IMG/VR virus record: IMGVR_UViG_3300045970_000272
Coordinates: 1 to 50,884 of that record
Direction: 5' to 3' (one strand)
Source of the DNA: a virus
Taxonomy: Duplodnaviria > Caudoviricetes
Length of the DNA stretch: 50,884 nt
A model generated the notes under the pieces. The model made no database searches and had not been told where the DNA came from. It worked only from the letters and a program-made list of their open reading frames with translations. The position numbers were made by a program, and so were the translations under genes. The first letter of the stretch is position 1. Each line of letters begins with the position of its first letter. Below, piece after piece: positions 12,592-50,644 of this stretch.

Positions 12592-13204
12592 GATTGTTGC
12601 AGGACTCCCTACGAGGGGGTTTATCTTTGCGCAGTCACTCATCTCCCTCCAGAGAAATGGCGTCACCGACGTTTGTTATGTCACAGGATTAACCATTCCC
12701 GACTGTCACAACGAAGCTACTAAGCAAGCCCTCGCAAAGGGCGCAACGCACGTTCTCTTGTACGAAGAGGACATGGAAATGCCCGATGGCACGATCGAGA
12801 AGATGCTCGAGGTCAACGGGAACATTGTCGTGGTGGACTACGCCATCGGCGATCAAGGTAAATGGCACTGCACTTACAAGAAGGACGGCAAGATCCTCTT
12901 TGGAGGCACAGGCTGTATGCTCGTGCGCCGAGAGGTGTTTGAGCGTATGCCGTACCCGTGGTTTGAGAACGACAAGACGTTCGACATCAAGACCTGGGAA
13001 CCGCTCGATGTTCAGTGCGAGTACGGCGGACAAGACGTATATTTCTGTTACAAGGCGCGCAAGATGGGCATTGAAATCCAGGAAGTACCCGACTGGCACT
13101 GCAAACATTGGAGGTGCAAGAACCTCGAGCGAGTCAACTCCAACGACGGACGGTACACCTTCTTTGAAATCGATTATGTAGACGTAAAGCAAGTAGGAAA
13201 GTAG
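12557..13204 (+). CDS. Glycosyltransferase, GT-A/GT2-like
   Basis: IVAGLPTRG, CHNEATKQALAKGATHVLLYEEDM (DxD-like), GTGCMLVRREVFERMPYPWF, GQDVYFCYKARKMG. Start 12557 chosen within ORF 12482..13204. Confidence 0.8.
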   Translation: MIETTSSQTTIKIVAGLPTRGFIFAQSLISLQRNGVTDVCYVTGLTIPDCHNEATKQALAKGATHVLLYEEDMEMPDGTIEKMLEVNGNIVVVDYAIGDQGKWHCTYKKDGKILFGGTGCMLVRREVFERMPYPWFENDKTFDIKTWEPLDVQCEYGGQDVYFCYKARKMGIEIQEVPDWHCKHWRCKNLERVNSNDGRYTFFEIDYVDVKQVGK

Positions 13205-13211
13205 GAAAATC

Positions 13212-13649
13212 ATGCCATTACCATCACCTCAAGTGTTACAAATGCGCCAACAAGCCATGACTGCTCCAAAGACGAGCGGTGGTGGGCTGCTTACCGACGA
13301 GGAAGTGCAACGAATCGTCCAAGAAGAGATGCAGGCGGCAGGAATTGACCCCAGAAAGCAGGCTGAGGACGCGCTGCGTGCGCAGATCCGCCAACAACTC
13401 GCCAAACAGCGCGGTGGTGCAAAACCGATGGGCAACGCACAGGGATCAAACCCCATGCAACCTGGTCAACCACCTAGAATGCAGGCTCAATCTCCCCAAC
13501 CCTTGAATGCTGGTAGGACTGTTCCACCCCGACCAGGTATCCCAACCCCCCGACCCAACGCAGGACTTGACGACTTTATGGCTAAGTTCGGCGGAATGAA
13601 CGGCACACCCTCGCCCAGAATACCAAGTGGAACATTTAATAATAAATAG
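13212..13649 (+). CDS. Q/P/G-rich disordered protein
   Basis: 145-aa ORF with SD; low complexity. Confidence 0.6.
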   Translation: MPLPSPQVLQMRQQAMTAPKTSGGGLLTDEEVQRIVQEEMQAAGIDPRKQAEDALRAQIRQQLAKQRGGAKPMGNAQGSNPMQPGQPPRMQAQSPQPLNAGRTVPPRPGIPTPRPNAGLDDFMAKFGGMNGTPSPRIPSGTFNNK

Positions 13650-13657
13650 GAGGTCTT

Positions 13658-13936
13658 ATGGCAATCGTTGGAAAGACAGTAGAGAGCATCGCCCTTGCTT
13701 TCACCACCAGTGCTTCCGCTCAAGCTAACTTCAAAACAGCCACGGCGGGTTTAATTAGAGCGTGCGTGTTGGCGACAGACGCAGACGTTTACATCAACTT
13801 TGATGCTGCTGCGGACGACACCAATTTCATTCTGCAACCAGGAGTTCCGTTGCACATTCACGACATACAATTTACTACATTAGCCGTCAAAGGCGTTAAT
13901 GATGCTGGCACCATGTACGTGCTGGCAATGAGATAA
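13658..13936 (+). CDS. Small beta-sandwich virion protein (spike-base/decoration-like)
   Basis: 92 aa, all-beta pattern (DVYINF, ILQPG); SD AGGAGG. Confidence 0.55.
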   Translation: MAIVGKTVESIALAFTTSASAQANFKTATAGLIRACVLATDADVYINFDAAADDTNFILQPGVPLHIHDIQFTTLAVKGVNDAGTMYVLAMR

Positions 13937-13946
13937 GGAGAACAAT

Positions 13947-14273
13947 ATGCCAGGTTTCTATCCAATTGGAGCTGTAGATTTCAACTCCAGCACAACCACC
14001 GCCGATGCCACGACTGGCATGACCGTCAAAGCTGGGGTGGCAAATAAAGTCATCTACGTCACCGACATGATGATTAGCACCGACACCGCGATGGACATTG
14101 AATTGCACGACACAGACAACACCGTTATTTTTGAGCATATGTACTTCCCCTCGAAGAGCATCTGGTCAAAGACGTGGTCAACTCCAATCGCCATCACACT
14201 CGGTAAAGGTTTGAAAGTCGTGTCCTCGGTCGCAGGCAACGTCACCTCAACAATTACTGGGTTTACCAAGTAG
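13947..14273 (+). CDS. Small beta-sandwich virion protein, paralogue A
   Basis: Aligns end to end with 14283..14603. Confidence 0.6.
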   Translation: MPGFYPIGAVDFNSSTTTADATTGMTVKAGVANKVIYVTDMMISTDTAMDIELHDTDNTVIFEHMYFPSKSIWSKTWSTPIAITLGKGLKVVSSVAGNVTSTITGFTK

Positions 14274-14282
14274 GAGTAAATT

Positions 14283-14603
14283 ATGCCCGACATTCCAGAG
14301 GGGGCGACCCCATTCAGTGATGTTGTAACCACAGCAGACGCTACGAGCGGGGTGGTTCTCAAAGCTGGCGAAGTGGGTAAGCAAATCTTTATTACCGATT
14401 TGGTGATGGAAGATTCCGACAAGGACGGTCTGGTGTTGCGCGACGACACGGGGGACATTGTTTACAAGATGTTCTTCCCAGCCACGCAAACCTGGCAGAA
14501 TACTTGGGAGTTTCCAATCACGGTGGCGATCGATTCAGGTGTCAGGTTGTTTTCTGATAATGTAAACAATATGTCAATTACAATTAGCGGTTATGTCATC
14601 TAG
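14283..14603 (+). CDS. Small beta-sandwich virion protein, paralogue B
   Basis: TTADATSGVVLKAG...IFITDL versus TTADATTGMTVKAG...IYVTDM. Confidence 0.6.
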   Translation: MPDIPEGATPFSDVVTTADATSGVVLKAGEVGKQIFITDLVMEDSDKDGLVLRDDTGDIVYKMFFPATQTWQNTWEFPITVAIDSGVRLFSDNVNNMSITISGYVI

Positions 14604-26377: not shown

Positions 26378-29300
26378 ATGCCCATAACAAACCAAAGAAT
26401 ACCAAAACCTCTCAATGATTTCACCAACGGACTCAAAACCGCAGGCAGAAACGTGGCGATGGCTATCCCATCACTTCCCGAACTACGACAGGGAGTCAAA
26501 GACTTCCCTAAATCGTTCGGTGAGTTCACCAAAGCAATTCCTGAGGGCATGGGTTTGGCGATGCGCGCTGCCGATCCAGTATCCGCGTTAGGTGGAGAGC
26601 TTTTGGGTCAGGAATCACCCGACCCCACCAGAACTTTGCAACGTAACGGTCCCGACGAGGGGTTAGCCTCACGAACTGCCAAAGCAATCTATGAGGGTAA
26701 GAGTTTGTACGGCGGGTTACGCCAAAAGGGTGTTCACCCTGCGTTAGCGTTTGGTGCAGAAATGCTCACTCCTTCAATGTGGAACCTGACCGCTATTGGT
26801 CAAGCTGCGAAGAACTTCTCAGGTGGTGTTAAGATTAACAAGGCGTCCCCCACGGCTGTTTTGAAGGCTGTCGGTGACTTCGCCAAAGAGTCTGGCACGT
26901 CCCTTTCCACCCCCCAAATGGCGGGTATCGCTGCAGGGTTCCAACCTGAGTTTGACGAGAACGGCAACTTCAAAGGTATGGGTTACAACGAGAAGCGCGC
27001 AGGTGCGGCACTCCTTATACTCAACCTCGGCTTACCCGTTGCAGGCATGATTGCAGGTAAAGCTGCTAAGGGCTTCAAAGATGGCAACCAATTCAACCGT
27101 ATCGCTGACGGTGCGGAGGGCGCGACCAAGTTTGAAATCCCCGACGTCGACGCAAAGATTAACCTAAACGACGAGAGCATGAAGGGCTTAATCCGCTCGG
27201 GCGGAGAAGTCACCTACAAGCTGGGCGACGTACTCGATCACAAGGGATTATTTGAGGGCTACCCTGAACTCAAGGACGTGGACGTGACGATTGCGCGCAA
27301 TAACGACGCTTTCACCAACAAGACCGCGTTGGCAGAGTCCAACACCGACACCAACGGCATCACAATCCGACCCGTGGGTAACGTCGACCAATTCCGACGC
27401 AACCTGCTCCATGAAATAGAACACTTCGTTCAAAACATTGAGGGGTTCCAAACTGGCACACTCCCCGAGAAGATGGACATTGACCCCCAATTGGCTATCC
27501 AGCGCAACGTGCTGATGCAGGCGCGTGTCGCCACCGAACTCAAGGAGAAACTTGGGTCTTGGGAGGCTGCGTCCACTCAAATGGCAAACGACATCAACCC
27601 AGAAATAGCCAAATCCGCCGTCAGTGCTGCCAAACAGTACGATGGGTTGGAGGACATCAAACTTGCTCAACAGAACATTAAGAGCGCAATAGAACTTGAT
27701 ACCTGGGAGAAGTACAACAATATGCCTGGTGAGTCCGAGGCGGGTGCGGTTGAAACGCGCGCCAGTATGACCCCAGAACAGCTCGCCAGCACCGACCCGT
27801 ACGCAGCTCCAAAACTTGCTAATTCGGGGGAAATGGGTAATATACCCAAGCCTATGTCAAACATCCGCCCAGAGGACGCTGATTGGATTAAGCGTTCCGT
27901 AGACGACGTTGAATTAATGCCAAATCAGTTCCGTAACAACCTCGAGGACGCTGGGGTTGACCCCGCTATCACCGACAGACTTGTTAATATCAAAAATGAT
28001 GTGGCGCGATACAAGAACGACCCAGAAACGTTGCAAACCATCAAACAAGACTTGGAAAGCGTAATAGGATACCGTGGCAGAGGCGCAGTTCCCCCATCAA
28101 CTCTTGATGTACGAGCAGAAGCCAAAGCTGGTCTTGAACGTTACAACGGCACGAACGCAGGCGATGGGTACGACTATCCTGGCGTTGCTGGCAAAGTCCC
28201 CCAACCTGCCGATGACTCCGCCTGGGTCAAAGACCAGCTCGTAAATGACGATATGTCCTCCGATGAGGAGATGTACAAGCTGTTCGTCGACAACGGCATC
28301 AATCCCGCGCAAGCCAAAGAGGTAATTAAGCTCCGACAGTCGGTAATGACCGACCCCTACGCTGGAATGAACGGTAGTCCCCAAATGAACGCCGTTGAGA
28401 AGATCATGGGCGTAACCCCCAGCGAGAGCGCCGTTCCTGGCGTGTCGCAAGCCGACCTTGTCGCAGCCATGAAGAAGACCGCTGGCAAAGTCCCTGCACC
28501 GACTGGAGATGTGGGATCTAATTCCCTTCCGTACAAGCGAGCGTTCTCTTCACAACAAGAATACATTGATAACGTCAATTATCTAAGAAAATTGAAAGTG
28601 CCTGAATCAGAAATTGCCAGGATTGTCCCAACTGTCCAAGACCCCAGCACCTACAACGAGACGGTCACGGGCGGTAAATATGTTCCTCAAAAATTAAACG
28701 CCATAAGCTCTAGAGAGGGCATACTGAATGGAACTATCAAAGACCTTGAGAGTCAAATCCAGGCTGAAATATCTAGTGGCGCGCAACCATACCAGTACCG
28801 ACAGATCCAGGACGAATTGACCAAGGCTAATAACGATCTTTATGACCTGCAGCAATATAAATCTGGGGTGTCTGGCAAGGTTCCTTCTCCAGAATTACAA
28901 ACCAAATTAGACCAAAACAAAGCAATACAACAGGAAATTCAGGATCACCTGGACGATCCAATGGTCAACCCAAACGACCCAGATACATTGGAATACAAAC
29001 GAGAATTAAATAAACTCGCCCTAGAGGAAACTAAATTGTGGGAAGCCATTCATGGGGACGACCTCAAAGTGGCTGGCAAGGTTCCCCAACCTGACGACTA
29101 CACGGAGTGGACATTCACAGGTAAAGATGGAACTAAGACTACTGTGAATGGACTACGGCTAAAAGAAATGGGGATGGATATTGCCGACTATATTACCCAG
29201 GAGGGTGGTCAACCGTTTGATGTAAAAGTAAATGAAAACCCCGTTTATGGTGGCGACACGAATTACGATACCACCAAACCAGACTCTCTATTTGACTCGA

Positions 29301-35828: not shown

Positions 35829-36566
35829 TTAGTACAAACGAACTCTACTTTTCTTGGCGTTGAAATTGTAAACAGTTTCAATCGCCTTAAGGTACTCCTC
35901 TCGGGTTACCTGTTTACCAAAGGTTGTACCAGTCAGCTCCAATTTTGCAATCAAAGTTTCATGGCTCAACTCAAATCGGTAGTAGAAAAGGTGCATCGCT
36001 TGAATGAACATTCTGTTCTGCCAGACGTTCCCGATCGTGTACCTGGATAGCTCCTTGAGTCTGGCTACAAACTCTTCAGAGGCTTCCATGTCAGTCACTT
36101 CAAACTTGCCCTCTCTGAACACTTTGCCGTGCATTACTACGGTTTGTGTCCTACCTGCAAACAAGATGGCGATCGCGTTGGCGATGGACAGTCCATGCTC
36201 GTTTGCGAATGGGTGGATCTTCTCGTACTCCTTATTCCCATTCTTGACGTGAGATTGCAGGTAATCTTCGGTCGTCCACATTTTGGATCGGGAGTTAAGC
36301 GTTATAACGTCGCTCAGCTTGAGTCCCTTACCGATAATGTAGAACACTTCAACTTGGAGGCGTTTGGCGGCTTCCAAGCGGTGTTGTCCGTCGATGATCT
36401 GCATATTCTCGTTTACGAGGATTGGTTGGTATTGCAGAAGGTTGTTGGCGCGTACTGCGGCGATAAGGTTTGCGAGATGCCCTCTGTCAATTAATCGGTT
36501 CCCCGTAACTGTGTCAAAGATGCTGTACTTCGAGGTGTTTTGTATTGTTAAGTTCAATTTAATCAC
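35829..36566 (-). CDS. ParB/Srx-like domain protein
   Basis: GNRLIDRGHL, PILVNENMQIIDGQHRLEAA; the true start may be TTG 36557. Confidence 0.75.
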   Translation of the reverse strand: MIKLNLTIQNTSKYSIFDTVTGNRLIDRGHLANLIAAVRANNLLQYQPILVNENMQIIDGQHRLEAAKRLQVEVFYIIGKGLKLSDVITLNSRSKMWTTEDYLQSHVKNGNKEYEKIHPFANEHGLSIANAIAILFAGRTQTVVMHGKVFREGKFEVTDMEASEEFVARLKELSRYTIGNVWQNRMFIQAMHLFYYRFELSHETLIAKLELTGTTFGKQVTREEYLKAIETVYNFNAKKSRVRLY

Positions 36567-36583
36567 CCCCCTTCTTGAGGTCT

Positions 36584-36619
36584 ACTATACCTCTAAGATG
36601 GGGGAAATGCCACCTTTAC
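36584..36619 (-). promoter_or_regulatory. Early promoter, copy 1 of a shared motif
   Basis: GTAAAGGTGGCATTTCCCCCATCTTAGAGGTATAGT on the - strand; near-copy at 45564..45598. Confidence 0.55.
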
Positions 36620-36623
36620 ACCA

Positions 36624-37034
36624 TTATGCTTTGCGCATGGGTGCTGGGCGGTAATACACCTCAAAGTTCTTATACTCGGACGCTTTGTCTTTGGTTTCCT
36701 TCATTCCCGCGTACTCAATCCGCACCTCGTTACCGACCGCAATTTTCACCGAGCCGTCGTCGTTGAAGAACTTGCCGTCAATCACGGTTGATCCCCAAAC
36801 GCCGTAGGTATTGCCGGTCCCAGGTTGCTGGATTATGTAAAGGTTTGACTTGTGTTTGCCGATGTCGTGGCGCACTTCCAGCAACAGACCTTCGATGGCT
36901 GCGCCGTTCTTGGCAAAGTCCCAAATCTCCTCTTCGCCACCGCCAACCTTAGTCCAGCCGTTGTCGCCAGGGGGAAAGGTGTCGTTGAGTGCCATTGATA
37001 AATCCGCCGTACTCATCTTGTCTACCGTAACCAT
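36624..37034 (-). CDS. Single-stranded DNA-binding protein-like (OB fold)
   Basis: IWDF...IEGLL, YGVWGST, GNEVRIEYAG, YKNFEV; adjacent to the exonuclease. Confidence 0.55.
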   Translation of the reverse strand: MVTVDKMSTADLSMALNDTFPPGDNGWTKVGGGEEEIWDFAKNGAAIEGLLLEVRHDIGKHKSNLYIIQQPGTGNTYGVWGSTVIDGKFFNDDGSVKIAVGNEVRIEYAGMKETKDKASEYKNFEVYYRPAPMRKA

Positions 37035-37038
37035 AAGG

Positions 37039-37707
37039 TTATCTCCTGTAATAATTAACTTTTGCTAACATATCCTTGTTCGACCATTCCCAGAGCTTTT
37101 TGGCTGCCAGGAACGCTTCAAAGTCGTCCTCCATCCATTGGAACTTGTACACACCCTCGGGCATCAAAAGCAAGACGCCGATGCGCTTGATGTCCATGCC
37201 GTCACAGTGCTTGTAGGCGGACAATTGAAGCCCCGATTCCATGTAAATATCCTTCCCCGTTTTCACATCAATAATGCAATCGTCCCCTCCAACTTTGAGG
37301 TGAAGGTCCAATGTCCCGCCGTAGCCCTCTTTCTCGTTTACGACAGTCTTTTCATGCTCCAAGATAACAGCCTGGTACTCTTTGACCCAGGTGTCGAACG
37401 CCGTGGCGTACCCCTGGTACTCAGCGTTCTCTGGAGTGAGGACGCGCCCTGTTTCTTTGAAAGATTCAACGATTGAATGGACGGTTGTACCGCGATTCTT
37501 CGCCTTACCTGACACCGACCAGGGTGCTGCTAAGGCTTCCTTTTCACCGATGCCTGGGGTGCGGACTGTCGCCCAGTAAACTTCACGACCAAACCAGAAC
37601 CGAAGTGCTGGCTTGTCTATGATTTGCAAAATGCCTGTCACCGATGCGTAGGGTAATCCGTTGTGGAAATAAAACCCACCGCGCTTGTTTGATTTTTGAT
37701 TTGCCAT
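37039..37707 (-). CDS. PD-(D/E)XK exonuclease
   Basis: SVTGIL, RGTTVH, YGGTLD, IIDVKTG, QLSAY. Confidence 0.85.
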   Translation of the reverse strand: MANQKSNKRGGFYFHNGLPYASVTGILQIIDKPALRFWFGREVYWATVRTPGIGEKEALAAPWSVSGKAKNRGTTVHSIVESFKETGRVLTPENAEYQGYATAFDTWVKEYQAVILEHEKTVVNEKEGYGGTLDLHLKVGGDDCIIDVKTGKDIYMESGLQLSAYKHCDGMDIKRIGVLLLMPEGVYKFQWMEDDFEAFLAAKKLWEWSNKDMLAKVNYYRR

Positions 37708-41943: not shown

Positions 41944-42494
41944 TCAGCCTCCTCGGAGTCCACTCCAAAGTGTTCGTCCACCATGCGCGTGAGCCGTTCT
42001 ACATCGGCAAACACAGCTTCGTATTCCTCTTTGGTCACGCTGGTCGACATTCGATAGGCGAGGCATTTGCGCTGGATCTCAAGGGCAAGCGTGCCGATCT
42101 CCGTACCTTGGAACACCTTGGGTATGTTGAAATTGAACAGGTGGTCGCCTGCGCCGTTGAACCAGATCGCGATGGCGTGGTTTTGGTCGAGGTCGCACTT
42201 CTTATAATCGTCCATCATCCTGGTCACGCGCTCGGCGTGCTTTGCAAACAGTATGAGGTTGTAAATGAACCCCGTACCAAACTCCGACTTGTCGGCGGTC
42301 GTGTTGCGTTTCATATGATCCTTTTCTTGAGTTAATTGATTTTCTTTAATTGCTCGACGGATACATCCTGCAGCGATATTGAGACGCCAACGTAGCACGC
42401 GAAGGTGTTCATCATCGTGCGGTTGATCTATCGCTTGGGTTATGTGGGTGAGTGCCTGATTAAGGACGATTTTGGTTATTAATTTTGATTTCAT
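41934..42494 (-). CDS. Hypothetical protein
   Basis: 186-aa ORF; probable second in-frame start at MKRNTT after AAAAGGA. Confidence 0.6.
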   Translation of the reverse strand: MKSKLITKIVLNQALTHITQAIDQPHDDEHLRVLRWRLNIAAGCIRRAIKENQLTQEKDHMKRNTTADKSEFGTGFIYNLILFAKHAERVTRMMDDYKKCDLDQNHAIAIWFNGAGDHLFNFNIPKVFQGTEIGTLALEIQRKCLAYRMSTSVTKEEYEAVFADVERLTRMVDEHFGVDSEEAEWA

Positions 42495-42931
42495 ATCGTT
42501 TCTTTTACTTTGGCGACTAAATCTGTATTTATTATTCCAGACAGTTCGTTGTAAGTGTCATACTTTCCCTGCCACAACTCAAGCTCATTCAACGCCCGCG
42601 TGAGGATTTGCGCAAGCATATCTTTGTCGGAGAGTATTCTGTAGGTGGAATAGTAACCGCGAACGGGGCGGTCATCTATTCTCACCGTACAGTTTTGAAA
42701 GGCTTGCACCTTCCTGTGGTCGATAACAACGCGGACGCTGTTGATTATTTGGCGCGCCTCGTGAATTCTCCAGTTATCGGACGCAACGCCGTCGTCCCAA
42801 GTGAACTCGTTGTGAAGTGGGTGGAGTGACGAAGAAGCCTCCGCCACTAATACCTCTGGTTGGATACTCCCGTCCCGTTTCTCAATCTCAGAGAGTATCT
42901 GAACTTTAATTTCATTATTAGCTTTATTCAT
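42491..42931 (-). CDS. Helical protein downstream of the array; putative accessory of the Cas7-like system
   Basis: GSIQPEVLVAEA...HPLHNEFTWDD..A...WRIHEARQII; SD GGAGG; first gene after the array. Confidence 0.7.
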   Translation of the reverse strand: MNKANNEIKVQILSEIEKRDGSIQPEVLVAEASSSLHPLHNEFTWDDGVASDNWRIHEARQIINSVRVVIDHRKVQAFQNCTVRIDDRPVRGYYSTYRILSDKDMLAQILTRALNELELWQGKYDTYNELSGIINTDLVAKVKETI

Positions 42932-42954
42932 AAAGCCTCCATTAATTATTATTT

Positions 42955-43736
42955 CAACACACCTCGCCTTGCCATATATTGACTTAACAATACTGACCGC
43001 GACTCACCATAACTGCCACGTCATACCGCCCTATCCTCAACCCAACTCGACTCACCATTACTGCCACACCCTACCTGTCCATGTCCTCCACTACTCGACC
43101 CGACCCTCCCCAACTGCCAGACCATGACGCGCCACAATACACCGTGACTCACCCCTCCTTACCTCTGCGCACCACTACTGCCCTACCGCACCTCACATTT
43201 CCCCACCGAACAATCCGTACCATAACTCGACTCACCACTACTGCCGGTCCGTGCCTAACCAAGACTCACCCCGCACCCCTTACGTTGCGCCACCGCTCCT
43301 CACCGCTACAGCCTCAACGCTCCTATCCATGACTCAACTTTCCCCATCGTACCTTTCCATTACTGCCTAACCATAACTTACCGCTCTCAGACCTACCCCG
43401 ACATTCCATACCGACCAGTACACTCCTAACCTTTACTGCCATCCGTACCGCACAGACCTCGGCTCTCCATAACAACCGCGACACTCCACTACTGCCAAAC
43501 CAATCAAAACCAATCCCGTGCGGACCCCAACATAACATTCCTTTACTGCCGTCCCCGACGTTCCAGAACTATCCCACCTGTCCATAACAACCATAACTCA
43601 CCGTTACAGCCAAACCGTGACAACCTAATCAGACCTCGCCTCCCTCTCCATTACTGCCAAACCGAGACCCACCTGACCTCTCCCCACCTGACCAAATTAC
43701 ACCAAAACATTACGCGCCCTCCGGACCATTACTGCC
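42955..43736 (-). repeat. Non-coding array of 13 GGCWG-headed units made of 5-nt GGY-like/NN steps; putative guide-RNA array
   Basis: + strand ACTGCC/ACAGCC at 43012, 43060, 43113, 43177, 43240, 43308, 43362, 43435, 43491, 43545, 43606, 43653, 43731; ACC/TCC/GAC/AAC recur every ~5 nt between them; no credible ORF. Confidence 0.85.
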
Positions 43737-43741
43737 ACGAA

Positions 43742-43763
43742 GGAGGGGTGGGCAGCCCCCTCC
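43742..43763 (-). other. Hairpin between the Cas7-like stop codon and the array
   Basis: GGAGGGG...CCCCTCC 7-bp perfect stem, 5 nt from the stop and 5 nt from the first unit. Confidence 0.7.
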
Positions 43764-43768
43764 ACAAT

Positions 43769-44440
43769 TTATGAGGATTTCACCTCAAACGTACCCGAAT
43801 CTCCATCTCTCTCAGGTCGCCATTCGCCGAGTCCTTGTGAGAAACCCGCCGTTTGAATCAGATTTGCAATCTGTTCTGGTGAGAATAAGTCTGCATTGAA
43901 ACGGATAACTAGAGCCATGCTCCAATTACGAACCGCTCCACGGTAGCGCAAGTCTGCGCTTCCCATGCCGACCCGAACCATGTCCTCCCGAAGGATAACT
44001 TGGCTGGTTTTGGGGTCGTATGCGAACACGTTTTCACCCTTTTCACCATTCGCCATTTCTGGCTTCTTAGCTGGTTTGAACGGTTTGCCGTCAATTAAGA
44101 CGCGCACCAAGCCGTCTTGATCTCCTTTGATGAAGATCGCGCCACGGATCATGGTCATTTTCAAACCTTCTATCGACCGAGCTGCTCCAACTACCGCCTG
44201 TTTGATTGCCAAAGCTGGGAAGCAGATGTAGCCTTCTTGGTCGTAGTAGAAACTAGCCAAGTATTCTTCAATGGGGTTACGCACGCCGTGGGGTTGTTTG
44301 ACCCTTTTAGCTTGCTTGGCTCGGATCATTTCCTTTGCTTTCTCTGACCACTTGTGAAAGATGATCGGACTGACACTGGCGATTTCGAGCTGCATTGTTT
44401 GAATATTTGGTGCTGGAATTACTATGTTTGTTTCTGGCAT
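43769..44440 (-). CDS. Stand-alone Cas7/RAMP-like RNA-binding protein
   Basis: RAMP-type order of motifs: LEIASVSPIIFH (beta1), YICFPALAIKQAVVGAA (P..xxK helix), REDMVRV...DLRYR (thumb), C-terminal Gly-rich loop GFSQGLGEWRPERDGDSGTFEV. Confidence 0.75.
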   Translation of the reverse strand: MPETNIVIPAPNIQTMQLEIASVSPIIFHKWSEKAKEMIRAKQAKRVKQPHGVRNPIEEYLASFYYDQEGYICFPALAIKQAVVGAARSIEGLKMTMIRGAIFIKGDQDGLVRVLIDGKPFKPAKKPEMANGEKGENVFAYDPKTSQVILREDMVRVGMGSADLRYRGAVRNWSMALVIRFNADLFSPEQIANLIQTAGFSQGLGEWRPERDGDSGTFEVKSS

Positions 44441-46378: not shown

Positions 46379-47584
46379 ATGAACAAAGATATGCGTCCGA
46401 TTAGTAGTTTGACTCTGTGGGACAAGAACCCCAGGTCAATCTCCAAAGAATCATTTGAGTCCCTCAAGAACAAAATCAAACGCTGGGGTCAGTTCAAACC
46501 GCTGTTAATGACTCCCGAGGGGATCATCATTGGTGGCAACATGAGGTTGCGCGCGTACAAGGAGCTGGGTATCAGCGAGGCGTGGGTGTCCGAGATCCAC
46601 CCCAAGGGTGAGGCTGAGATGATTGAGATTGCGTTGGCGGACAACGAACTCGCAGGTCGCTGGGACAGGGACGCTTTGGCAGAATTGGTGTACGGCTACA
46701 AAGACGAGATCAATTTGGGCGACTACCAGCTAGACTTAGGCAAGCCTGCCGACTTAAACCAACTCCTTTCACAGTACGGTCCCTCCGCCGAGGAGGACGA
46801 AGTGCCTGAGGTGTCCGATGAACCGCCCGTGTCGGTACGCGGTGAAATCTACGAACTCGGTCAGCACCGCTTAATGTGTGGCGACTCCTGTTCGTTGGAC
46901 GACGTAACCCTGTTGATGGACGGCAAGAAAGCTGACATGGTTTTCACTGACCCTCCCTACAACGTCAACTACGGCGAAACAATGAAGGACGAGCTGCGTG
47001 GCGGTAACCGCACGATCATGAACGACAACATGGGCGACGCTTTCCCTCAATTCTTAAACGATGTGTGCGTCAACTTGGTCATGTTTACCAAGGGCGCGAT
47101 TTACATTTGTATGTCCTCCTCTGAACTGACCACCCTCAAGGAAGCCTTTGTCAGCGCAGGTGGGCATTGGTCAACTTTCCTTATTTGGGTCAAGAACACA
47201 TTCACAATGGGACGCTCCGACTACCAACGCCAGTACGAGCCTATTTTGTACGGGTGGAAAGAGGGTACGGATCGTTACTGGTGCGGTGCGCGCGACCAGG
47301 GCGACATCTGGGAGGTCAACCGACCCACCAAGAATGATTTGCACCCCACCATGAAACCGTTGGAACTGTGCGAGCGCGCTATCAAGAACTCGTCCAAGAC
47401 TGAGGACATCGTGTTGGATCTATTCTTAGGCTCAGGCTCTACGCTGATCGCTGCGGAACAGACGGGGCGCGTGTGCTTTGGTATGGAACTCGATCCCAAA
47501 TACTGCGATGTGATACGTAAGCGTTATGCAAAATACATGAACAAGGAGGAAGAATGGCAGACACTAACTCCCAAACTCGCATAG
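46379..47584 (+). CDS. ParB-N domain fused to an N4-cytosine/N6-adenine DNA methyltransferase (beta class)
   Basis: WDKNPR, IIGGNMRL, LGQHRLMCGDS, FTDPPYN, HPTMKP, VLDLFLGSGSTLIA. Confidence 0.92.
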   Translation: MNKDMRPISSLTLWDKNPRSISKESFESLKNKIKRWGQFKPLLMTPEGIIIGGNMRLRAYKELGISEAWVSEIHPKGEAEMIEIALADNELAGRWDRDALAELVYGYKDEINLGDYQLDLGKPADLNQLLSQYGPSAEEDEVPEVSDEPPVSVRGEIYELGQHRLMCGDSCSLDDVTLLMDGKKADMVFTDPPYNVNYGETMKDELRGGNRTIMNDNMGDAFPQFLNDVCVNLVMFTKGAIYICMSSSELTTLKEAFVSAGGHWSTFLIWVKNTFTMGRSDYQRQYEPILYGWKEGTDRYWCGARDQGDIWEVNRPTKNDLHPTMKPLELCERAIKNSSKTEDIVLDLFLGSGSTLIAAEQTGRVCFGMELDPKYCDVIRKRYAKYMNKEEEWQTLTPKLA

Positions 47585-49003: not shown

Positions 49004-49658
49004 AGAGGAGCTGGAGGAAGTGTCGCGCCTCACGGCTGTGGCGGAGGTTGAGCGTGCAAAGAACGACCTCTTTTACTACCTGGAGAACATGGTGTGGACG
49101 ATGGACGAACACGACGAGGATCACCCCACCAAGAAGCTTCCGATGGAGAAGCGTTACTTGCAGGAACTCGCCTACCACTTCTTGAACGAGAAGCTGCTGT
49201 TGGTCGAGAAGTCCCGTCAAATGATGGTGACGTGGTTGATGGTGGCGTGTCATTTGTGGGACGCACAGTTCCACGAGGGGCGGCGCATCTTCTTCCAATC
49301 CAAGAAGGAGGCGGACGCAAATCACCTGGTTGACCGCGCCAAGTTCATCTACAACAACTACCCACCCGTGTACCGTGAGATTATCCACACCAACTACGCT
49401 GCGCGCACTCCGATGGCGTACCTTAAGCTGGAGTTTGGCAAGCTCAACTCAATCATACAAGGCACTCCCCAGGGGTCGGACGTTCTCCGCCAATACACCG
49501 CCTCACGTATCTTTATGGACGAGGCTGCGTTCCAGGAGAAGGCTGAGGAGACGTGGATTGCTGCCAAACCTACTGTGGTGGGTGGCGGGTCGGTCGTGAT
49601 GGTTTCCACTCCAAACTTTAAGAACTTCTTTTATCAAGTGAGGAGCGATTCTCTATGA
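48918..49658 (+). CDS. terL: Terminase large subunit, N-terminal ATPase half
   Basis: Walker A EKSRQMMVTW, Walker B IFMDEAAF, coupling motif VSTP, then a stop 14 codons later. Confidence 0.88.
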   Translation: MSNYQKDSLSSLASLPPQVRLKMVKRLSKEELEEVSRLTAVAEVERAKNDLFYYLENMVWTMDEHDEDHPTKKLPMEKRYLQELAYHFLNEKLLLVEKSRQMMVTWLMVACHLWDAQFHEGRRIFFQSKKEADANHLVDRAKFIYNNYPPVYREIIHTNYAARTPMAYLKLEFGKLNSIIQGTPQGSDVLRQYTASRIFMDEAAFQEKAEETWIAAKPTVVGGGSVVMVSTPNFKNFFYQVRSDSL

Positions 49659-50644
49659 TCAAGTACATCGACCTGTTTGCAGGCGTGGGAGGGTTTCATT
49701 ATGGATTTGACAAAGCTAATAACCTTTGGTCGTTGGCTGAGGGGTTTGATTGCGTTTACTCAAACGAGTGGGACAAGTACGCCGCCAGCGTTTACAGGCG
49801 TCACTACAACGAATGTGACGAGCGGGACATACGAACCGTACCATCTCAAGACCTCCCAAGCTTCGACCTCCTCTGTGGAGGATTTCCCTGTCAACCCTTC
49901 TCGGTGGCTGGACGACATGGAGGTTTTGATGACACCAGGGGAACGCTCTTCTTTGAGATTGTTAGGATACTGTTCGATCGCCAACCCAGACTCGTACTAC
50001 TTGAAAACGTCAAAGGGCTGCTCAGTCATGACGGTGGACGCACTTTCAAAAGAATCATCTCCGCGCTTGATGAGCTGGGGTACAACGTTCAATGGGATGT
50101 GCTTAACAGCAAGGATTACGGGGTACCGCAAAACAGGGAGCGCATCATCATTGTCGGCTATCTTAGAGGAACACGTAGACTCGAAGTATTTCCTATCCGA
50201 CGCAGCAGTTCAGAAGATACTTTGGCGCGCATCGCAACCAAGGTTTACGAACCGTTCCCGCAAACCCACCGACTATCAGACGCGTTTAGAATCCGAGGAG
50301 TAGATGGTGTGAGCGCAACCCTCAAGGGGCTGGGTGGCGGCATGGGTGCAAAGACTGGACTGTACGCCGTACGCCAACCGCTCAAGTTTCTCGACCGTAA
50401 CCAGCGCAACATCGAGGGCGACTACTCGTACACCGTGGACAGTTTGAACACGGGCGGCGTTCGGATTGGTACAAAGGTGCGCCGACTGACACCCGTGGAG
50501 TGCGAACGGTTGCAGGGTTACCCAGACGACTGGACCAAGTTCGGAGAAGATGGTAAGTTAATGAGTGACAGCCAACGCTACAAGATGATGGGAAACGCTG
50601 TCACTACAAATGTTGTCACAGCCGTGGCAGAAAGGTTGGTATGA
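49655..50644 (+). CDS. dcm: DNA (cytosine-5) methyltransferase
   Basis: DLFAGVGG, GGFPCQ, ENVKG, QNRERI, RRLTPVECERLQGYP, GNAV. Confidence 0.95.
   Translation: MIKYIDLFAGVGGFHYGFDKANNLWSLAEGFDCVYSNEWDKYAASVYRRHYNECDERDIRTVPSQDLPSFDLLCGGFPCQPFSVAGRHGGFDDTRGTLFFEIVRILFDRQPRLVLLENVKGLLSHDGGRTFKRIISALDELGYNVQWDVLNSKDYGVPQNRERIIIVGYLRGTRRLEVFPIRRSSSEDTLARIATKVYEPFPQTHRLSDAFRIRGVDGVSATLKGLGGGMGAKTGLYAVRQPLKFLDRNQRNIEGDYSYTVDSLNTGGVRIGTKVRRLTPVECERLQGYPDDWTKFGEDGKLMSDSQRYKMMGNAVTTNVVTAVAERLV

What the first reader, a model, noticed from the sequence alone, without database searches (positions are those of the whole stretch)
42955..43736. Array grammar: invariant triplet + variable dinucleotide, unit lengths quantised in ~5-nt steps
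Seen: spacings between the 13 heads are 48, 53, 64, 63, 68, 54, 73, 56, 54, 61, 47 and 78 nt. Six of twelve are 5n+3 and three are 5n+4. On the - strand the units parse as pentamers, e.g. 43736..43659 ...GGC GC|GTA AT|GTT TT|GGT GT|AAT TT|GGT CA|GGT GG|GGA GA|GGT CA|GGT GG|GTC TC|GGT TT, and 43017..42955 GGT GA|GTC GC|GGT CA|GTA TT|GTT AA|GTC AA|TAT AT|GGC AA|GGC GA|GGT GT. Triplets are mostly GGT/GGA/GGC/GTC/GTT/GAC with occasional 4-nt steps; the dinucleotides vary freely. A period of 5 is incompatible with coding. Inference: information is stored in the interleaved NN positions (about 8-14 per unit), a non-contiguous code that BLAST or CRISPR finders would miss.
Basis: partly seen in the sequence, partly recalled or inferred. 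Interest (0 to 1): 0.85.

Follow-up and report, generated by a model that had tools for sequence, protein, structure and literature searches.

The report
Phage VIPR guide-RNA array
This stretch is a phage's array of VIPR guide RNAs, a kind of RNA-guided DNA-silencing system first described in 2026, and two of its guides spell out a bacterial lexA gene and a rival phage's nuclease gene.

Summary
The 837-nt gap at 42932-43768 is G-rich and C-poor on the minus strand. It has a strong 5-nt period (lag-5 G autocorrelation z = 9.3) and 13 heads at exactly the reported spacings.

It is a VIPR array (Viral Interference Programmable Repeat; bioRxiv 2026 preprints). The gene just upstream (43769-44440, minus) is a Vipr RAMP/Cas7-like protein: profile match to the solved SUSP1 Vipr, E 7e-10, and a Cas7-type fold. 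The array parses into 13 vrRNA units of 10-16 G-K-H-N-N steps, each opened by a 4-nt "GGCA" step. An accessory gene follows (42491-42931).

Applying that rule gave targets:
- One unit matches 24/24 informative bases in a bona fide lexA gene (two metagenome contigs).
- One unit matches 20/20 in the PD-(D/E)XK nuclease gene of a related phage. The phage's own copy matches only 17/20.
- A third unit falls 7 codons downstream on lexA (16-17/19).

Verdict: a new member of a known kind. The lexA target does not appear in the VIPR texts I could search. RNA expression, the host and the VIPR type are untested.

The parts
43769..44440 (-). vipr gene: 223-aa RAMP/Cas7-like Vipr protein
   Evidence: A profile of 38 homologues matches PDB 36pp_D 'SUSP1 Vipr protein' at E 7.4e-10, over profile 18-197 and chain 2-187, with the G-x-G-[DE]-W-R-P G-loop aligned. 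hhalign against the SUSP1 gene L103:28474-29061 gives probability 97.9 and E 4e-13. The AF2 model has pLDDT 88.9. Top Foldseek PDB hits are all Cas7/Csm3-type chains, E 2e-6 and weaker. PHROG 4652; no Pfam hit.
43740..43765 (-). G+C-rich hairpin between the vipr stop codon and the first unit; no T-run follows it
   Evidence: Read directly from the sequence. The terminator scan did not call it. Its function is untested.
42954..43736 (-). vrRNA array of 13 head-to-tail units. 5' ends on the - strand are at 43736, 43658, 43611, 43550, 43496, 43440, 43367, 43313, 43245, 43182, 43118, 43065 and 43017. Each unit is a 4-nt GGCA/GGCT step followed by 9-15 steps of G-K-H-N-N. The 3' end of the last unit is uncertain.
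   Evidence: GGCA accounts for 323 of the 409 four-nt steps in 71 related arrays.
43119..43182 (-). Unit with 12 regular pentamers (43178-43119). Its NN string, read as NNx codons, gives V-A-E-N-G-D-T-V-V-A-M-L. Predicted target is lexA.
   Evidence: The 10-NN pattern found 7 metagenome contigs. All 7 hits are in frame on the same S24-domain motif of LexA-family proteins. 2 of the 7 (L096, L099) match 24/24. Those two proteins are TIGR00498 lexA equivalogs at 217 bits, against a cut-off of 111.
43314..43367 (-). Unit with 10 regular pentamers (43363-43314). Predicted target is the PD-(D/E)XK nuclease gene of a related phage.
   Evidence: 20/20 at L083 3303-3331 (= G001), against a shuffle maximum of 16/20. 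That gene's product is 46% identical to the phage's own ORF 37039-37707. G001 carries its own vipr.
43441..43496 (-). Unit with three internal 4-nt steps. Its best local match is also on lexA, 7 codons downstream of the site above.
   Evidence: 17/19 in L100 and 16/19 in L096 and L099, against a shuffle maximum of 16. This is suggestive only.
42491..42931 (-). Accessory (vap-like) gene, 146 aa, conserved F-x-W-D-D motif
   Evidence: 33% and 32% identical to the proteins beside the arrays in L075 and L049. PHROG 15946. 7705 representatives at E <= 1e-3. AF2 pLDDT 96. No significant PDB fold match. Not related to SUSP1 vap1 (hhalign probability 0.3).
37238..37266 (-). The phage's own near-target: the homologous site in its own nuclease gene (ORF 37039-37707), matching the unit-43367 guide at 17/20
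   Evidence: The three mismatches lie in two variable codons of the motif.

Best explanation
The region is the guide-RNA array of a phage VIPR system.

Proposed mechanism:
- The array is transcribed on the minus strand together with vipr (upstream) and a vap-like gene (downstream).
- The transcript is divided at the 4-nt GGCA marks into 13 vrRNAs of 10-16 pentamer steps.
- Vipr protomers bind one per pentamer. They sequester the G-K-H scaffold and present the two N bases.
- These N bases pair with double-stranded DNA at two of every three target bases (the 1-nt skip rule), which blocks transcription.

Predicted targets of this phage's guides:
- the S24-domain motif of a bacterial lexA gene (one perfect guide and one imperfect guide);
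- the catalytic motif of a PD-(D/E)XK nuclease gene of a related phage that itself carries VIPR.

Shown here: the period-5 grammar, the Vipr homology and fold, the conserved gene-array linkage, and the perfect gapped matches.

Inferred from the published type II system: transcription, processing at GGCA, filament formation and silencing.
For: Grammar. Lag-5 z is 9.3. There are 10-16 steps per unit, within the published 9-16 repeats.

Protein. Match to SUSP1 Vipr at E 7.4e-10 and hhalign probability 97.9. The histidine equivalent to SUSP1 H17, the thumb Y-R and the G-loop [DE]-W-R are aligned and are (near-)invariant in 38 homologues. The fold is Cas7-type.

Linkage. 73 of 80 loci holding a Vipr homologue carry a run of at least 8 such steps on the gene's strand. 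Only 1 of 80 does on the opposite strand. The same layout occurs in Mycobacterium phage Saal.

Targets.
- 20/20 on the relative's nuclease gene.
- 7 of 7 metagenome hits on one LexA motif, in frame, 2 of them 24/24.
- All matches have the sense of the mRNA with the skipped base at the wobble position. This fits the NN composition, which matches sense codon positions 1-2 best: -3.73 bits per NN, against -3.96 to -4.43 for the five other registers.

Chance estimate (my arithmetic). A 24-base pattern is expected about 0.01 times or less in 1e12 bases. The collection's size is my assumption.
Against: - There are no RNA data. No RNA run holds the stretch, so transcription, ends and processing are not shown.
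- The scaffold is degenerate. Position 2 is G in only 77/138 steps and position 3 is a pyrimidine in 95/138.
- 12 of 165 steps are internal 4-nt steps whose reading is unknown.
- Only 2 units have perfect targets and 1 more has a partial one, out of 13.
- Guides from units 43736 and 43550 found nothing in viral contigs.
- The 24-base lexA pattern found nothing in 185,579 species genomes.
- The organism that carries the matching lexA is not identified and is not shown to be the host.
- The 20/20 hit alone is not rare. I estimate about 0.3 chance hits in the viral collection. Its weight comes from where it lies: in frame, in a Vipr-carrying relative, and at the site homologous to the best self-match.
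- One guide matches the phage's own gene at 85%. The preprint reports no self-hit at or above 80% for its systems.
- The accessory protein is unrelated to vap1 and has no significant fold match.
Confidence: 0.9

Rival explanations
1. It is a VIPR array, but the lexA-type match is aimed at a LexA-like or CI-like S24 repressor carried by a competing prophage or satellite. Alternatively it serves as a decoy or sequestration site. On this reading the host SOS repressor is not silenced.
For: The preprints report targets in prophage lysogeny-switch regulators and decoy sites in host genomes (passages seen). The matched motif is conserved across LexA-family proteins: 7 of 7 hits come from contigs with GC between 0.36 and 0.69.
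Against: The two 24/24 hits are full-length lexA equivalogs with the LexA DNA-binding domain, and each lies beside a PAS histidine kinase gene. The same 20-base pattern found nothing in 2.9 million viral contigs.
Confidence: 0.25
2. The target matches are coincidences. The array is a VIPR array whose real targets are all still unknown.
For: I estimate about 0.3 chance 20/20 hits in the viral collection and about 2 chance 20-base hits in the metagenome collection. Only 6 patterns were scanned, and no shuffled pattern could be scanned as a control.
Against: 7 of 7 hits fall on one motif of one protein family in one frame, and 2 of them extend to 24/24. A second unit lands 7 codons away on the same gene. 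The nuclease hit is at the site homologous to the best self-match, in 6 of 6 family members examined.
Confidence: 0.05
3. It is not a guide array at all. It is a G-rich structural DNA or RNA element, such as an R-loop or G-quadruplex origin, a protein landing pad, a Shine-Dalgarno-like sponge or a Chi-like decoy.
For: There is extreme strand asymmetry. The array lies within the replication-gene cluster: DnaB-like helicase and initiator 4-6 kb away. These were my first ideas, before the Vipr match.
Against: None of these ideas predicts a 5-nt lattice with variable positions 4-5, a Cas7-like neighbour in 73 of 80 loci, or perfect 3-nt-register matches to coding sequences. The RNA fold is no better than shuffles, z -0.85.
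Confidence: 0.03

Closest known systems
Type II VIPR of Escherichia phage SUSP1 (KT454805; vipr at 28474-29061, vap1 at 28031-28471)
   Same: Homologous Vipr protein. Pentamer guides with variable positions 4-5. The system lies on the phage within an early-gene cluster. Targets match by the 1-nt skip rule in coding sequences, with the skipped base at the wobble position.
   Different: - SUSP1 vrRNAs are separate genes, each with its own leader and a conserved tail of about 40 nt (a pseudoknot according to the preprint). Here 13 units abut head to tail, are marked only by GGCA, and have no tail.
- The scaffold here is G-K-H rather than GGY.
- The accessory protein is unrelated to vap1.
- The Vipr proteins align with only 22% identity.
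'Staggered' VIPR arrays with overlapping vrRNAs (legend of fig. S18 of 10.64898/2026.04.26.720920)
   Same: [quoted passage not shown] That fits units which abut at a 4-nt GGCA step, a step that shifts the register by one base.
   Different: I saw only the legend, not the figure or the data. I could not learn which type, motif or clade it shows, so the equation is unverified.
VIPR loci of the same clade in isolates, such as Mycobacterium phage Saal gp51/gp52 (NC_023580)
   Same: Vipr homologue at 34% identity. A vap-like gene with the same F-x-W-x-D-D motif. A (GGCNN)n array punctuated by GGCA.
   Different: In Saal the array lies upstream of vipr and has a cleaner GGC scaffold. The genes are annotated only as hypothetical proteins.
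Class 1 CRISPR-Cas backbone (Cas7/Csm3 filaments on crRNA)
   Same: Same fold family. One protomer binds per fixed number of guide nucleotides. A thumb interrupts the pairing periodically.
   Different: There are no CRISPR repeats or spacers and no cas genes were found in the ORFs scanned. The step is 5 nt with only 2 paired bases, against 6 nt with 5 paired. The system is carried by a phage.

Membership tests
VIPR system | A Vipr (minimal RAMP: RRM core, G-loop, thumb) gene next to the array | tested here: met
   (sequence and profile). (confident model, Cas7/Csm3 top hits). H29, R167 and E206-W207-R208 of the window protein align with SUSP1 H17, the thumb Y-R and D177-W178-R179, and are (near-)invariant in 38 sequences.
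VIPR system | vrRNA made of at least 4 tandem 5-nt units, with a conserved GGY (or related) scaffold and variable NN | tested here: met
   The scaffold is degenerate here (G 91%, G/T 92%, not-G 100%). The preprint allows 'related consensus' forms (Methods section 20).
VIPR system | 9-16 repeats per vrRNA | tested here: met
   10-16 steps between successive GGCA marks in the 12 units bounded by two marks; the 13th unit has no downstream mark, so its step count is not fixed.
VIPR system | Targets found by the 1-nt skip rule (NN-x), typically in coding sequence with x at the wobble position | tested here: met
   Perfect matches for 2 units and a partial match for 1. 10 of 13 units have no target so far.
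VIPR system | No self-target at or above 80% NN identity (reported for the published systems) | tested here: not met
   One guide matches the phage's own nuclease gene at 17/20 = 85%. This equals the maximum of 100 shuffles. The other 5 guides tested do not exceed their nulls.
VIPR system | vrRNAs are expressed, processed and co-purify with Vipr; silencing depends on the NN positions | not testable with these tools
   No RNA run holds the stretch. Only DNA contigs from two pond metagenomes could be laid on it.
VIPR type II (SUSP1 / P. fulva clade) | Conserved 3' tail of about 40 nt (pseudoknot) after each repeat tract; vap1 accessory gene | tested here: not met
   There is no conserved block beyond about 23 nt around each GGCA. 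The fold z-score is -0.85. The vap-like family against SUSP1 vap1 gives hhalign probability 0.3. So it is not type II. Which of the other six types it belongs to could not be decided, because the figures and supplements were not visible.
CRISPR array | Direct repeats of about 23-50 nt separated by unique spacers of similar length | tested here: not met
   Tandem Repeats Finder reports only one 48-nt, 2.1-copy repeat at 77% matches. The shared block is about 18-23 nt and the units abut.
Rfam RNA families | A match to any curated covariance model | tested here: not met
   Within 42400-44000 there were only two matches, E 0.16 and 2.2, both far below their gathering scores and both outside the array.

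The most novel reading that the evidence does not exclude
A phage uses VIPR guide RNAs against a host chromosomal gene. Two neighbouring guides sit on the conserved autoprotease motif of lexA. Infection would then silence the SOS repressor by an RNA-guided roadblock, switching on the SOS regulon or flushing out LexA-controlled resident prophages. A third guide disables a rival relative's nuclease gene and spares the phage's own copy through three informative mismatches. Host-directed VIPR targeting of a core regulator is absent from the VIPR texts I could search. No paper in the library holds both 'vrRNA' and 'LexA'. LexA and SOS are absent from the main text of two of the preprints. Supplementary target tables were not visible.
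Probability: 0.4. Interest if true: 0.7.

Novelty: new member of a known kind. Interest (0 to 1): 0.45.

Why it matters
That kind of system is now in print, so its value here is as a well-resolved natural example from an uncultured pond phage.

What this example offers:
- 13 abutting guides with a simple GGCA punctuation shared by 71 related arrays. That gives a rule for calling vrRNA boundaries in this large clade (about 7,000 Vipr homologues).
- Two concrete, testable targets.

If the lexA target is real in the host, VIPR would be used for host takeover through the SOS switch as well as for conflict between phages. The nuclease case shows how a phage can hit a conserved catalytic motif in relatives while its own copy differs at three informative bases.

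Tried and rejected
Ideas held before the Vipr match and then dropped:
- T7-like promoter series (the head resembles part of a T7-type promoter; this is from recall)
- T7-end-like repeat arrays
- iterons or an R-loop origin
- Chi-like decoys
- CsrA or ribosome sponges
- a TRAP-like ring-binding site
- a glycine-rich coding region

None of these explains the Cas7-like neighbour or the codon-register matches.

Searches that found nothing:
- blastn of the array against 50,697 phage records.
- Rfam.
- tRNA scan.
- Pfam on 10 flanking ORFs, apart from one initiator domain.
- Word-based homologue search and viral-contig search for the 146-aa protein. HMMER later found 7705 relatives.
- Foldseek PDB search for the vap-like model: best E 1.2, with weak winged-helix rows only.

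Target scans without result:
- Self-scan of 6 guides: none above the nulls except the 17/20 case.
- 6 window guides against 80 related loci: best 19/24 and 17/20, marginal.
- 163 guides from 63 loci against 659 kb, at skips of 0-3: no excess for any skip.
- G001's own 5 guides against the window: nothing.
- Guides of units 43736 and 43550 in viral contigs: 0 hits.
- The unit-43182 guide in viral contigs: 0 hits.
- The 24-base pattern in genome contigs: 0 hits.
- LexA relatives in genome contigs: none confirmed, so the host is unknown.
- Nuclease relatives in viral contigs: only 1 and then 5 loci.

Sequencing runs. No RNA holder is listed. The second pond run holds identical short contigs, so natural variation could not be used to compare NN with scaffold positions.

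Other limits. I scanned 30 ORFs against PHROGs and saw no integrase or repressor, but not all ORFs were scanned, so the lifestyle is undecided. Supplementary tables and figures of the preprints, which may list this clade, its type, its vap gene and any lexA targets, were not visible.

Full report
WHAT IS THERE

The window is a complete 50,884-bp IMG/VR phage record with terminal repeats. Structural genes run on the + strand from about 0.6 to 34 kb. A block of replication and early genes runs on the - strand from 34 to 46 kb.

The finding lies in an 837-nt gap (42932-43768) between two minus-strand ORFs. On the + strand the gap has C 354 and G 98. Its GC skew is unlike any other 1-kb bin.

On the minus strand, G autocorrelation peaks at lag 5 (z 9.3) and lag 10 (z 6.7) against 500 dinucleotide-preserving shuffles.

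HOW THE IDENTITY WAS FOUND

Homologues of the upstream 223-aa protein are common: 217 confirmed stretches in viral contigs and 7247 proteins at E <= 1e-3. None has a Pfam domain.

In related loci I saw the same kind of G-rich pentamer tract beside the gene. A profile of 38 homologues then matched one solved structure, 'SUSP1 Vipr protein' (36pp_D, E 7.4e-10). That name led to three 2026 preprints on VIPR systems and a fourth that recovers VIPR arrays by their 5-nt entropy period.

From the text I read:
- VIPR consists of a minimal RAMP protein, Vipr, and vrRNAs of 9-16 GGY/NN pentamers.
- One protomer binds each pentamer and hides the GGY.
- The NN bases pair with double-stranded DNA while every third target base is skipped.
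- The outcome is transcriptional silencing of competing phages, prophages and satellites.
- Seven types are described. Their array layouts include separate vrRNAs with tails, 'staggered' overlapping vrRNAs, ribozyme-interspersed arrays and single vrRNAs.

MEMBERSHIP

Protein.
- hhalign of the family profile against the SUSP1 vipr gene gives probability 97.9 and E 4e-13 over 184 columns.
- The residues the structure paper names for GG recognition have aligned, (near-)invariant counterparts: a beta-sheet histidine, a thumb arginine and the G-loop D-W-R.
- The AF2 model (pLDDT 88.9) finds only Cas7/Csm3-type chains at the top of the PDB search.

RNA grammar.
- A dynamic-programming parse gives 139 five-nt, 25 four-nt and 1 three-nt steps.
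- Position 1 is G in 125/138 steps. Position 2 is G in 77 and T in 50. Position 3 is never G. Positions 4-5 have the highest entropy.

Linkage.
- 73 of 80 related loci have a run of at least 8 such steps on the vipr strand, and 1 of 80 has one on the other strand.
- Stricter criteria give lower counts: 24 of 80 by Fourier power and 16 of 80 by skew.

Accessory gene.
- The 146-aa ORF downstream is homologous to the proteins beside the arrays in L049 and L075 and in Mycobacterium phage Saal.
- Its family has 7705 representatives. The model is confident, but there is no significant fold match.
- It is not SUSP1 vap1.

ARRAY ARCHITECTURE

Every unit opens with a 4-nt step, GGCA (11 units) or GGCT (2 units). 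This shifts the pentamer register by one base. In 71 related arrays, 323 of 409 four-nt steps are GGCA, among 3406 five-nt steps. So GGCA is the punctuation of this clade.

Unit length equals 5 x steps minus the number of 4-nt steps.
- The three 5n+4 units have no internal irregular step.
- The six 5n+3 units have one.

Unlike SUSP1, where each vrRNA has its own leader and a tail of about 40 nt, the units here abut and have no tail. The RNA is not more structured than shuffles (z -0.85). This may be the 'staggered' layout of the preprint's fig. S18, but I saw only its legend.

The window's array is more degenerate than its relatives. 12 of 165 steps are internal 4-nt steps, against 86 of 3833 in the related arrays.

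TARGETS

I converted uninterrupted runs of pentamers to NN-x patterns.

Self-scan. Nothing exceeded the nulls, except that the unit-43367 guide reached 17/20.

Unit 43367 and the nuclease gene.
- In viral contigs, the 9-NN pattern of unit 43367 had 4 hits.
- One of them (L083) extends to 20/20 and lies in frame in a PD-(D/E)XK nuclease gene.
- The 17/20 self-match is the homologous site in the phage's own nuclease gene. The two proteins are 46% identical.
- The L083 contig (G001) has its own vipr and arrays.
- In the four other family members I could fetch, the site matches 17, 17, 17 and 18 of 20. The differences are confined to variable codons.

Unit 43182 and lexA.
- The 10-NN pattern of unit 43182 had 0 viral hits but 7 metagenome hits.
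- All 7 are in frame on the same S24 motif of LexA-family proteins.
- 2 of the 7 match all 24 informative bases, 1 matches 23 and 4 match 22.
- The two perfect ones are lexA equivalogs (217 bits) with the LexA DNA-binding domain. Each lies beside a PAS histidine kinase gene.

Unit 43496. Among 845 kb of held sequence, its best match lies 7 codons downstream on the same genes (17/19).

Strand and register. All matches have mRNA sense with the skipped base at the wobble position. This agrees with the NN composition and with what the preprints report.

LIMITS

- No RNA evidence exists. The phage is seen as identical DNA in two pond metagenomes.
- The host is unknown.
- Exact-match scans were possible for guides of only 4 of the 13 units, and no shuffled control could be scanned.
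- My chance estimates rest on assumed collection sizes.
- The 85% self-match is unexplained.
- The VIPR type and vap family could not be assigned, because figures and supplements were not visible.

VERDICT

The kind of system has been in print since April 2026, so this is a new member of a known kind. It has a clean punctuation rule and two specific predicted targets. The lexA target appears to be new in the literature I could search.

Noticed in passing
window 37039-37707 (-), site 37238-37266: The phage's own PD-(D/E)XK nuclease gene carries a 17/20 (85%) match to one of its own guides. The three mismatches lie in two variable codons. It is unknown whether this is enough to avoid self-silencing.
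   Followed up: partly
window 43000-43099 and units starting at 43245, 43065, 43017: Tandem Repeats Finder reports a 48-nt repeat of 2.1 copies at 77% matches. Three units share their first three pentamers, which suggests that guides arise by duplication and divergence. Unit 43736 also holds an internal 10-nt duplication.
   Followed up: no
window 46379-47584 (+), 35829-36566 (-), 49655-50644 (+): There is a ParB-like/DNA methyltransferase fusion (PHROG 498, E 2e-130), a second ParB-like protein and a second methyltransferase. No integrase was seen among the 30 ORFs scanned, so the lifestyle (lytic, integrated or plasmid-like) is open.
   Followed up: no
L082 2065-2320 (Mycobacterium phage Saal, NC_023580, about 36579-36834): A (GGCNN)n array with GGCA punctuation lies just upstream of gp51 (Vipr homologue) and gp52 (vap-like). 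It sits beside the immunity repressor, the antirepressor and the excisionase. All are annotated as hypothetical. 27 Mycobacterium and 5 Gordonia phage records hold the protein.
   Followed up: partly
G001 (L088) 13165-14581: The related phage whose nuclease gene is the perfect target has its own vipr, a vap-like gene and 5 guide runs. None of the 5 matches the window above the nulls, so no reciprocal targeting was seen.
   Followed up: yes
L103 27480-28040 (Escherichia phage SUSP1): Each SUSP1 vrRNA is preceded by a conserved leader of about 35 nt and followed by a conserved hairpin-forming tail. This differs markedly from the abutting units of the window.
   Followed up: no
window 43740-43765 (-): A strong G+C-rich hairpin lies directly after the vipr stop codon, with no T-run. 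L049 has a terminator-like hairpin at the same place. It may set the ratio of vipr mRNA to array transcript, or it may be a processing or stability element.
   Followed up: no
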